Origin: Escherichia coli | GTDB lineage: Bacteria > Pseudomonadota > Gammaproteobacteria > Enterobacterales > Enterobacteriaceae | Direction: 5' to 3' (one strand) | DNA: 64,000 bases | NCBI RefSeq assembly: GCF_017348835.2 | Contig: NZ_CP071375.1 | Program-made: the position numbers | Shown: piece by piece, positions 42,001 through 45,000 of the stretch | Layout: every line of letters begins with the position of its first letter | Numbering within the stretch: position 1 is the stretch's first letter

Positions 42001-45000
42001 ATTTTTGAAGGCCACAGGGCGGTACCGTCCGGCTTGACCTGGAAAAAGACCGTGTTTATACCGAGACGTTGCAGATGATCCAGTTTGTCGATCATCGCCT
42101 GTTGTTGTACACGGGCCCGGCTGGTGGGGTTACTAATGTTAACCGAGGAAACCGGTGGCCAGTCGAGGCGAGACACCGTGGCCAGCCAGATGCCACGCAT
42201 CGGTTGTGACGATTGTTGCGTCGTGGCTGGTGGATTTGAACCTGCTGGTGGTGTCACCATGGACTCTGGAGGCGTGCTTTTACAACTACACAGTAAAAGT
42301 GCCAGTGCAACCAGTATCGCTGGTCTTCTAATCGCTAATTTCTCGTTTCGGGAGCAGATATCCATATGTGCTGGTTTCCGGTAAACAGATGTGCGCTCAT
42401 TCTCGTACTTATCCCGGTTAAGTCAATACGACAGCAAGCACGAAAAAGGGAGCGATGAATTATCGCTCCCTTATCTTATAACCATTCAGACATAGTTAGT
42501 GTTTCTTGTCATTCATCACAATATAGTGTGGTGAACGTGCACGCGGGTGCAGGAAGAAGTGACCTTTTGGTGCGTTCTTACTGTTGATTGGCTCCAGAGT
42601 GACGCCGGTATTCGCTTTGCCTTTACGATCATGAACAGCATAGAGAATAAAGGGCAGGGCAAGTACCACCAGGAAACTAACGACCAGTAATTCAACATAC
42701 ATATCGGTAGAGTCACCCTGGATATTATCCGGCGGCAGGAAGGAAACAATAAACGCCATAATTGAAGTCAGCAGACCGACAATAGCCACGACCAGTTTCA
42801 CCCCTTTACCACCAGGGATATTAAATGTGCGTTTTAAGTCAGGATGTTTAAGAACCAACACAATGTAGCCAATAAACAGCATGAAATAAGCACACAGATA
42901 AATCACCACAGTCAGCGCCAGTGCGATCAGGAAGGACATGTTGTTACCGCCACCGGTATTGGTGAGGATGATCAACGCGATAGAAGTAATCACCAGCTGC
43001 GAAATGACCAGCGTTACCGGTACGCCATTTTTGTTCATTTTAGCGAATGCCGCTGGCAGCAGGTTTTTCTGCGCTGTGACATACATCCCGCGAGAAGGAC
43101 CAACAATCCAGGAGGCGATTTCCGCCAGAACACCCAGCAACAGCAGTGCGGAGATCACGCGAACCGTCCACTCAATTTCCGGTGCCACATGGGACATCAG
43201 AACGGTAAAGGTTTGCATTACCCCTGCGGAGAGGTTGATTTCATTACCCGGAATGACCATCGCAATAGACAAACCACCAACAGAGCTTAAGCAGATTGCC
43301 GCCACCATCAGCAGTAACATAGCCAACGGATAGTCGCGCCCTGGGTTGCTCATTTCATTGACGTGGGTTGCGGATGCTTCTACGCCCATATAACTCAAAA
43401 TGAAGGCAACAAATACTACCAGGGTGCCCACTTTAGAGAAGTCAGGGAAGAAGGTCTTCGAATCCATTTCGATAGCAACGGGGGCACCGGAGTGCAGATA
43501 AATAGCCGCTAATGCGATCAAAATAAATGCAGGTAACAGGATACCGGCGAAGAAGCCAACTTTAGCAATTCGCGCCGTGTATTTCGTGCCACCAAACTGC
43601 GTTAATGCCAGCGCCCAAAGAATGATGAGTGCTGCAATAGTTTTGGTAATGGGGTCTTCATTCAGCGCTGGCCATTTCAGGATGTAGGAGAGTGCCCCTA
43701 ACACGAAATAGAGCATCGGAATAAAACCAATGGCGATTTGCAGATAGCCAAATGAGATCGCTGCAAATCCCCATCTCGGCCCCAGAGTATTTGATACCCA
43801 GGCGAAGACACCACCTTCTTCCCAGCCGTCGACGGTGGCCATTTCCGCAGCACAAAGTCCCACGGGAATAAACCATAAAATCCCGCCTAATAGCAGGAAG
43901 AAGACTAATGAAAAGCCCGATGTTGCGAAGGTAGGGTATTCATAAACAGCCATTACCATCGATGCCGTTATGGCAAAGAATCCGAGTAATGTGAGCTGCT
44001 TAGCTTTACCTGTCTGTACTGATGTAGCCATATTATCCCCCTAAAACGGTATTCCTGTCGGAACCGCACCTGTTTTGTTCTGAAGCGTATTCAGAACAAT
44101 ATTTTCCGTTGCTAATGCCAGTGAACAGACTTTGGAAATTGTCCCGAAACGGGTTCGTTTCGGGACACCGTTACCGTTAAACGTTATCAGGTATGTTTAA
44201 AGCTGTTCTGTTGGGCAATACCCTGCAGTTTCGGGTGATCGCTGAGATATTTCAGGGAGGCTTTGTAGTCTTCCAGCAACAGTTCAGCAAAGTCCATTTC
44301 GAAGCCGCGACGACACATAATGCGCATCACCACGATGTCGGTGGCTTCACCGCCGAGAGTGAAGGCCGGAACCTGCCAGCCGCGCAGACGCAGACGTTCA
44401 GAGAGGTCGTACAGGGTGTATCCCGGATCTTCACCATCTTTCAGTTTGAAGCAAACCGCCGGGATGCCTTCGTCCGGGCGACCCGTACAGATGAACTCAT
44501 ACGGCCCCAGTTTGGCGATTTCATCCGCCAGATAGGCAGCGACCTGGTAGGAAGCATTCTGTACTTTGGTATAGCCTTCACGACCAAGGCGCAGGAATTC
44601 ATAGTACTGTGCAATCACCTGACCTGCCGGGCGGGAGAAGTTGATGGCGAAAGTACCAATCTGACCCCCCAGGTAGTCAACGTTGAACACCAGTTCCTGC
44701 GGCAGCGCTTCTTCGTCACGCCAGATAACCCAGCCGCAGCCCAGAGGAGCCAGACCGAATTTATGGCCTGAAGCACTGATCGATTTCACACGCGGCAGGC
44801 GGAAGTCCCAGACGATATCCGGGGCGACGAACGGTGCCAGAAAGCCACCGCTGGCGGCGTCGATGTGCATGTCGATGTCGATACCGGTGTCGGCCTGGAA
44901 TTTATCCAGCGCATCGTGCAGCGGTTGCGGGAACTCATAGTTACCGGTGTAGGTCACGCCGAAAGTCGGCACCACGCCGATGGTGTTTTCGTCGCAGGCT

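What the first reader, a model, noticed from the sequence alone, without database searches (positions are those of the whole stretch)
44141..44166. Perfect 11-bp-stem hairpin in the gadB-gadC intergenic spacer
gtcccgaaacg-ggtt-cgtttcgggac lies between gadB and gadC without a U-tract on either strand, so it is not a canonical terminator. It could be an mRNA processing or stability element or a partial attenuator that sets gadB:gadC stoichiometry.
Basis: seen in the sequence. Interest (0 to 1): 0.2.

Follow-up and report, generated by a model that had tools for sequence, protein, structure and literature searches.

The report
RNA-end hairpin between gadB and gadC
A strong RNA hairpin just after the E. 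coli gadB gene marks the place where published maps show part of the gadBC message ending, which probably leaves more message for the enzyme GadB than for its transporter GadC; this is an ordinary, well-known kind of operon fine-tuning element.

Summary
The hairpin is real. It is one pair longer than reported: a perfect 12-bp stem with a 4-nt loop at 44140-44167, ΔG -19.9 kcal/mol. It lies on the minus (mRNA) strand, with 19 nt between the gadB stop codon and the stem, in the 155-nt gadB-gadC spacer of E. coli. K-12 is identical there.

Two independent published Term-seq datasets place an abundant RNA 3' end 5-7 nt after the 11-bp core (window 44136 and 44134). So a discrete gadB-only RNA ends at this hairpin.

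The structure is conserved. Within E. coli the variants seen are in the loop or at the loop-closing pair. E. albertii keeps the stem through three compensatory pair changes. Several lineages carry G·U pairs that work only in the mRNA sense. The short tail AAUUUCC is not conserved (AAAUUCC, AAACUCC). Hafnia paralvei and Yersinia ruckeri have unrelated strong hairpins without a U-tract at the same place.

Best reading: a 3'-end-forming, exonuclease-blocking stem-loop, possibly also a leaky terminator, that uncouples gadB and gadC mRNA levels. The choice between termination and processing is unresolved, and the effect on stoichiometry is untested. I found no dedicated description of it. Interest is low: a new member of a known kind.

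The parts
44140..44167 (-). Perfect 12-bp stem, 4-nt loop hairpin in the gadBC mRNA: UGUCCCGAAACG-AACC-CGUUUCGGGACA.
   Evidence: Conservation with 3 compensatory pairs and sense-strand G·U pairs.
44130..44140 (-). Mapped RNA 3'-end cluster just 3' of the hairpin, in the tail AAUUUCCAAAG. Adams Term-seq puts the 3' end at 44136 (K-12 1570594, the last U of AAUUU). TRS on the Dar & Sorek data puts the dominant end at 44134 (1570592), range 1570588-1570598.
   Evidence: Coordinate offset K-12 = window + 1526458.
44187..45587 (-). gadB coding sequence (466 aa), ending in tandem stops TGA-TAA. There are 19 nt between the stop codon and the 12-bp stem.
44032..44186 (-). The 155-nt gadB-gadC untranslated spacer. 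The 109 nt from the 11-bp core to the gadC start codon have C20/G25, so no C-over-G bias. They contain several RN|WUU RNase E-like motifs.
44075..44099 (-). Second, weaker spacer hairpin: 10-bp arms, of which 9 pair in the predicted fold, ΔG -10.2 kcal/mol. It has no compensatory changes and is disrupted in the E69-type and E. albertii sequences. Its role is uncertain.
42496..44031 (-). gadC coding sequence (511 aa), the downstream cistron of the operon.
42442..42472 (-). Canonical terminator of the operon after gadC: 11-bp stem followed by UUUUUC. The Term-seq 3' end is at 42442 (K-12 1568900). It serves as the in-operon reference for a true intrinsic terminator.

Best explanation
The hairpin is an RNA element of the gadBC mRNA (minus strand) that defines and protects the 3' end of a gadB-only RNA species.

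Shown:
- The stem-loop forms with 19 nt between the gadB stop codon and the stem. By my own estimate (background knowledge of ribosome footprints, not tested here) this is far enough for it to fold while a ribosome terminates.
- Abundant, precise RNA 3' ends lie 5-7 nt after the 11-bp core in two independent Term-seq datasets.
- The stem, but not the loop or the tail, is conserved across Escherichia through compensatory and G·U changes.

Inferred mechanism: transcripts that are cut (RNase E-like sites) or that stop anywhere in the 109-nt untranslated spacer are trimmed 3'-to-5' by PNPase or RNase II until they stall at the stem. In E. coli proper, the short AAUUU may also let a fraction of RNA polymerases terminate there. 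Either route leaves a stable gadB message, while only read-through, uncut molecules carry gadC. That would give more gadB than gadC mRNA, which fits an abundant cytosolic decarboxylase paired with a membrane antiporter.
For: - Hairpin geometry and energy.
- 3' ends at K-12 1570594 (Adams, M63; 33,817 reads against 70,553 at the gadC terminator).
- 3' end at 1570592 (Dar & Sorek data re-analysed by TRS; R = 0.82; 3 of 3 replicates).
- Conservation: within E. coli the variants are in the loop (AACC, AAGC, CACC) or break the loop-closing pair (L093, A·C). The E69-type sequence has G·U at pair 7 and loop CUCU. L085 has G·U at the closing pair. E. albertii has 3 compensatory pairs (U-A to C-G; A-U to G-C twice).
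- The G·U pairs would be A·C mismatches on the other strand or in DNA, so selection acts on the mRNA-sense RNA.
- The tail degrades from AAUUUCC to AAAUUCC (E69-type) and AAACUCC (E. albertii), while stem energy stays at -18 to -20 kcal/mol.
- Hafnia paralvei and Yersinia ruckeri have unrelated hairpins (stem cores -24.6 and -24.3 kcal/mol; -27.6 and -30.6 with flanking pairs). Each has 1 U in the 8 nt after the stem core and sits at the same place in the operon.
- Dar & Sorek 2018 describe exactly this anatomy, a stable stem-loop without a U-rich tail at a precise steady-state 3' end, as an exonuclease-protective structure.
Against: - No experiment found here tests the hairpin itself: no stem mutants, no half-lives, no pnp or rnb data for this site.
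- The 3' end at the last U of AAUUU is also what weak intrinsic termination would give.
- The covariation rests on few lineages. All three compensatory pairs are in E. albertii, and 26 of 500 shuffles reached 3 such pairs.
- The Adams study called the 3' end only in M63, not in LB at OD 0.4 or 2.0.
- The relative abundance of gadB and gadC mRNA or protein was not obtained.
- Many taxa manage with gadB-gadC spacers of 10-35 nt and no hairpin, so the element is dispensable for the system as such.
Confidence: 0.55

Rival explanations
1. It is a leaky intrinsic (Rho-independent) terminator. RNA polymerase itself releases a fraction of transcripts at the AAUUU after the strong GC-based stem, and the rest read through into gadC. 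The hairpin matters as a terminator, not as a nuclease barrier.
For: The stem is strong (-19.9 kcal/mol) with a G/C-rich base. The Adams 3' end lies exactly at the last U of AAUUU. The tail score with the 12-bp stem is 2.74, near the cut-off of TransTermHP-type scoring as I recall it, unverified. R = 0.82 indicates a sharp local end.
Against: Only 3 U occur in the first 8 nt, and the simple terminator scan did not call it. The U's are lost in the E69-type sequence (AAAUUCC) and in E. albertii (AAACUCC, tail score 1.60), and are absent after the Hafnia and Y. ruckeri hairpins, while the stems are kept. What is conserved is therefore the stem, not a terminator.
Confidence: 0.28
2. It is the protective hairpin of a Rho-dependent partial terminator. 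Rho loads on the untranslated spacer and stops a fraction of polymerases before or within early gadC, and the ends are then trimmed back to the hairpin (the Dar & Sorek class in the strict sense).
For: The anatomy matches that class: a stable stem-loop, a U-poor tail and a precise 3' end. The 109 nt between the hairpin and the gadC start are untranslated.
Against: The downstream 109 nt have C20 against G25, so no C-over-G bias, and contain further structure. No Rho termination region near 15705xx-15706xx is listed in the Adams bicyclomycin table, but that table was made in LB at OD 0.5, where gadBC is poorly expressed, so this is weak evidence.
Confidence: 0.1
3. It is a protein-recognised or DNA-level element: an operator palindrome for a dimeric regulator, a cruciform, or a binding site on the RNA for a 3'-hairpin-binding protein such as ProQ that regulates read-through or stability.
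For: It is a perfect 26-28-bp palindrome in E. coli. From background knowledge, ProQ-type proteins prefer 3' hairpins with short U tails. No gadB link was found in the literature search.
Against: The G·U pairs in the E69-type, L085 and E. albertii sequences are A·C mismatches at the DNA level and on the opposite strand. Half-site sequences change in E. albertii while pairing is kept, and the loops vary freely. This pattern fits an RNA stem, not an operator. No Rfam family matches. ProQ binding is untested.
Confidence: 0.05
4. It has no function of consequence. The hairpin merely stalls exonucleases on decay intermediates and has no measurable effect on GadB or GadC output.
For: Stable decay intermediates at hairpins are common. 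Many taxa lack any spacer hairpin. The 3' end was called in only one of three Adams conditions.
Against: Pairing is maintained through compensatory and G·U changes in a spacer segment that is otherwise the most variable part of the alignment. Analogous strong hairpins occur in Hafnia and Y. ruckeri.
Confidence: 0.1

Closest known systems
3'-terminal protective stem-loops at steady-state mRNA 3' ends without U-rich tails (Dar & Sorek 2018, NAR, PMC6061677)
   Same: A stable stem-loop sits immediately upstream of a precise Term-seq 3' end, and uridine content after the stem is low. The 3' end at this very site appears in their data as re-analysed by TRS.
   Different: Their class was defined at gene or operon ends with bicyclomycin-sensitive read-through. 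Here the site is internal to an operon, Rho dependence is untested, and the downstream sequence shows no C-over-G bias.
Intercistronic mRNA stabilisers that set differential expression within operons (malE-malF REP/BIME hairpins in E. coli; puf operon hairpins in Rhodobacter). Recalled from established literature, not re-read here.
   Same: A hairpin lies between an upstream cistron needed in large amounts and a downstream membrane-protein cistron, and an upstream-only RNA ends at the hairpin.
   Different: This is not a REP/BIME: it is single-copy, with a median of 1 place per genome among 5,406 genomes with a match. No half-life or deletion data exist for it.
Canonical intrinsic terminator, for example the gadC terminator of the same operon (window 42446-42472)
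   Same: A G/C-rich perfect stem of 11-12 bp, a short loop, and an RNA 3' end a few nt after the stem.
   Different: The tail is AAUUUCC rather than UUUUUC. The tail score is 2.2-2.7 against 3.9, the tail is not conserved in sister species, and transcription must continue past it for gadC to be expressed.

Membership tests
Canonical intrinsic (Rho-independent) terminator | Stable G/C-rich stem-loop | tested here: met
   12-bp perfect stem, ΔG -19.9 kcal/mol.
Canonical intrinsic (Rho-independent) terminator | U-rich tract immediately 3' of the stem | tested here: not met
   AAUUUCCA has 3 U in 8 nt. The simple scan did not call it. Tail score is 2.24-2.74 against 3.86 for the gadC terminator. 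The E69-type sequence has 2 U and E. albertii 1 U.
Canonical intrinsic (Rho-independent) terminator | Factor-independent release of RNA polymerase at the site | not testable with these tools
   This needs in vitro transcription. The Term-seq 3' end cannot separate termination from trimming.
Protective 3' stem-loop of Rho-dependent or processed transcripts (Dar & Sorek class) | Precise steady-state RNA 3' end immediately downstream of a stable stem-loop | tested here: met
   3' ends at K-12 1570594 and 1570592, which is 5-7 nt after the 11-bp core, in two independent datasets.
Protective 3' stem-loop of Rho-dependent or processed transcripts (Dar & Sorek class) | Reduced uridine content after the stem | tested here: met
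   The tails of the homologues are even poorer in U.
Protective 3' stem-loop of Rho-dependent or processed transcripts (Dar & Sorek class) | Rho dependence (bicyclomycin read-through) and C-over-G enrichment downstream | tested here: inconclusive
   The composition test was not met (C20/G25 in 109 nt). No bicyclomycin data are available for conditions in which gadBC is expressed.
Protective 3' stem-loop of Rho-dependent or processed transcripts (Dar & Sorek class) | 3' ends extend or RNA is destabilised when PNPase/RNase II or the stem are removed | not testable with these tools
   The Dar & Sorek supplementary tables are not held.
REP/BIME intercistronic stabiliser | Member of the dispersed REP repeat family (many copies per genome) | tested here: not met
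   The 101-nt query gives a median of 1 place per genome among 5,406 E. coli genomes with a match. There is no second full copy in the window.
Operon-internal differential-stability element (functional class) | An upstream-only transcript ends at the hairpin | tested here: met
   a 3' end classed 'Alternative primary in TU, gadB'.
Operon-internal differential-stability element (functional class) | The upstream cistron's mRNA or protein exceeds the downstream one because of the hairpin | not testable with these tools
   No coverage, half-life or mutant data were obtained.
Any Rfam RNA family | Covariance-model match | tested here: not met
   Only two chance-level hits (E-values 3.2 and 8) elsewhere in 43800-44400, and none on the hairpin.

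The most novel reading that the evidence does not exclude
The U-less hairpin may be a regulated valve rather than a passive barrier. Read-through or protection at the stem would be modulated, for example by pH, growth phase, or a 3'-hairpin-binding protein such as ProQ, to tune antiporter against decarboxylase. On this reading the independent appearance of strong U-less hairpins at the same operon position in Escherichia, Hafnia and Yersinia ruckeri reflects convergent selection for this control.
Probability: 0.1. Interest if true: 0.4.

Novelty: new member of a known kind. Interest (0 to 1): 0.2.

Why it matters
gadBC is the core of the most effective acid-resistance system of E. coli and is widely used for GABA production. 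An element that sets how much antiporter message accompanies the decarboxylase message would explain part of the GadB:GadC balance. It is also a practical consideration when the operon is cloned or engineered. Beyond that it is one more example of a familiar principle, a hairpin-defined 3' end inside an operon, and it opens no new question.

Tried and rejected
- Rfam scan of 43800-44400 at E-value up to 10 gave nothing on the hairpin.
- REP or other repeat family was rejected: the element is single-copy per genome, and only 1-mismatch 11-mers occur elsewhere in the window.
- The gadA paralogue does not share the hairpin. Homology between gadA and gadB ends just past the stop codon (H12), and gadA-type loci carry ordinary U-tract terminators (L004, L008, L040).
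- An operator or DNA palindrome was rejected because of sense-strand G·U pairs and compensatory changes.
- A gadC-specific promoter in the spacer has no convincing support. The only promoter-like hit overlaps the gadC ribosome-binding site and start codon.
- Literature searches for a dedicated description found none. These covered the gadB-gadC intergenic region, stem-loop, Northern blots, monocistronic transcripts, ProQ, PNPase and RNase II.
- The older gad papers were not held (Hersh 1996, Smith 1992, Waterman & Small 2003, Tramonti 2002).
- My recollection that Northern blots in De Biase et al. 1999 showed both a gadB-sized and a gadBC-sized transcript could not be verified.
- These supplements or papers were not held or had no gad entries: Dar & Sorek supplements, TERMITe, Conway 2014, SEnd-seq (Ju 2019), Li 2014.
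- The metagenome scan with the conserved flank gave only 14 loci and 3 extra variants.

Full report
**Observation**

The sequence at 44141-44166 is exactly as reported. A mechanical scan shows that the perfect stem is 12 bp (44140-44167) with a 4-nt loop.

The window is E. coli. The 501 nt around the site are 100% identical to strain O145 RM9872, and more than 5,390 complete E. coli genomes carry it between genes annotated gadB and gadC. K-12 MG1655 is identical across the spacer, with K-12 coordinate = window + 1526458.

Both genes are on the minus strand:
- gadB: 44187-45587
- gadC: 42496-44031
- spacer: 155 nt

In the mRNA sense the element reads UGUCCCGAAACG-AACC-CGUUUCGGGACA, followed by AUUUCCAAAG. 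There are 19 nt between the tandem stop codons UGA-UAA and the stem.

**Chance**

Dinucleotide shuffles of the window give 0.23 perfect hairpins of at least 11 bp per shuffle. The real window gives 7 registrations from 5 distinct hairpins. The spacer's folding energy is 4 standard deviations below shuffles. The hairpin alone is -19.9 kcal/mol.

**What the transcript does there**

Two published 3'-end maps from different laboratories contain this site.
- Adams et al. 2021 (eLife, PMC7815308), supplementary file 1, sheet 'M63 0.4', lists a 3' end at 1570594(-) with an average of 33,817 reads. The printed flanking sequence is this hairpin, and the end is the last U of AAUUU. The operon's terminal 3' end after gadC (1568900) has 70,553 reads in the same sheet.
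[quoted passage not shown] Its dominant position is 1570592 and R = 0.82, where R = L/(L+D), a measure of one minus local read-through. It is significant in all three replicates and is classed 'Alternative primary in TU', gene gadB.

In window coordinates the ends are 44136 and 44134, which is 5-7 nt past the 11-bp core.

**Conservation**

- Within E. coli the 101 nt around the hairpin are at least 95% identical in all but 3 of the 5,407 matching records, and occur once per genome.
- The E. coli-type variants I retrieved change the loop (AACC to AAGC in SE15; CACC in YY76) or break the loop-closing pair (L093, A·C).
- In the divergent E69-type lineage, pair 7 becomes G·U and the loop becomes CUCU. 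A metagenomic relative (L085) also turns the closing pair into G·U.
- In E. albertii the hairpin segment is the most changed part of an otherwise 94%-identical spacer, yet it still folds at -19.1 kcal/mol. Three pairs changed on both sides (U-A to C-G; A-U to G-C twice), one became G·U and two are lost.
- The sample is small and the three compensatory pairs come from one lineage; 26 of 500 column shuffles reach that count. The covariation is supportive rather than conclusive.
- The G·U pairs are informative in another way. They are valid only in the mRNA-sense RNA, and would be A·C mismatches in the antisense RNA or in a DNA cruciform or operator. This also argues against purely DNA-templated palindrome correction.

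**The tail is not conserved**

AAUUUCC in E. coli becomes AAAUUCC in the E69-type sequence and AAACUCC in E. albertii. A TransTermHP-style tail score falls from 2.2-2.7 to 2.0 and 1.6. The gadC terminator scores 3.9.

Outside Escherichia:
- Hafnia paralvei (spacer 113 nt) and Yersinia ruckeri (122 nt) carry unrelated, very strong hairpins about 33-40 nt after the gadB stop. The stem cores are -24.6 and -24.3 kcal/mol, or -27.6 and -30.6 with flanking pairs. Each has only 1 U in the 8 nt after the stem core.
- Other Yersinia species and a Serratia have only small hairpins next to the gadC ribosome-binding site.
- More distant taxa have spacers of 10-35 nt with no hairpin.

**Mechanism**

What is conserved is a strong stem on the mRNA, not a terminator tail. 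What is observed is a sharp, abundant RNA end at its foot. This is the anatomy that Dar & Sorek (2018) described for stable 3' ends protected from PNPase and RNase II by stem-loops that lack U-rich tails. It is also the logic of classical intercistronic stabilisers (malE-malF and the puf operon, from background knowledge).

My best reading is an exonuclease-blocking, 3'-end-defining hairpin that leaves a stable gadB-only RNA, while only uncut, read-through molecules encode GadC.

I cannot separate this from genuine but weak intrinsic termination at AAUUU in E. coli, and the two may act together. Strict Rho dependence is less likely, because the 109 nt downstream show no C-over-G bias (C20/G25). 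It is nevertheless untested under inducing conditions.

The consequence for the GadB:GadC ratio is inferred, not shown.

**Comparison with known things**

- It is not a member of any Rfam family.
- It is not a REP/BIME, because it is single-copy.
- It fails the U-tract criterion of canonical terminators.
- It meets the structural criteria of the protective 3' stem-loop class. The class's Rho and exonuclease criteria could not be tested.

**Verdict**

The element is an ordinary operon-internal 3'-end-forming hairpin whose RNA end is already present in public datasets. I rate it a new member of a known kind, with low interest (0.2).

Noticed in passing
window 44075-44099: A second hairpin in the same spacer (UUGUUCUGAA-UACGC-UUCAGAACAA, -10.2 kcal/mol). 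On the plus strand it is followed by TATTTTCC and is called terminator-like (tail score 3.75), as if it could stop antisense transcription coming out of gadC. It has no compensatory changes and is disrupted in the E69-type and E. albertii sequences.
   Followed up: partly
window 42442-42472: The canonical gadC terminator (11-bp stem plus UUUUUC). The published Term-seq 3' ends at K-12 1568900 and 1568896 match it.
   Followed up: yes
L084 (E. coli DX6, NZ_CP126345.1) 2501-3246: In this strain an IS1 sits about 100 nt upstream of gadC. The gadB gene, the hairpin and neighbouring genes are deleted, leaving gadC with only part of the spacer.
   Followed up: partly
window 40994-41028, 22537-22564, 57705-57735, 23831-23852, 20710-20733: Other perfect hairpins or palindromes in the window: stems of 14, 12 and 12 bp, a 22-bp full palindrome GCCGGATGACGCGTCATCCGGC, and a 9-bp stem. 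Probably gene-end terminators or REP-like elements. Not examined.
   Followed up: no
L009-L015, L019 (Yersinia spp., Serratia sp. Ag1), about 5-35 nt upstream of gadC: A small conserved G/C hairpin (for example GGCGGCAuuaUGCCGCC in Serratia, CGGCgucauGCCG in Yersinia) lies just before the gadC Shine-Dalgarno sequence AAGGUGGAU. It could affect gadC translation initiation.
   Followed up: no
E. coli genome search: Five matches to the gadB-gadC spacer region lie on records typed as plasmids rather than chromosomes.
   Followed up: no
window 44184-44189: gadB ends with tandem in-frame stop codons TGA-TAA. They are invariant in all Escherichia spacers aligned.
   Followed up: no
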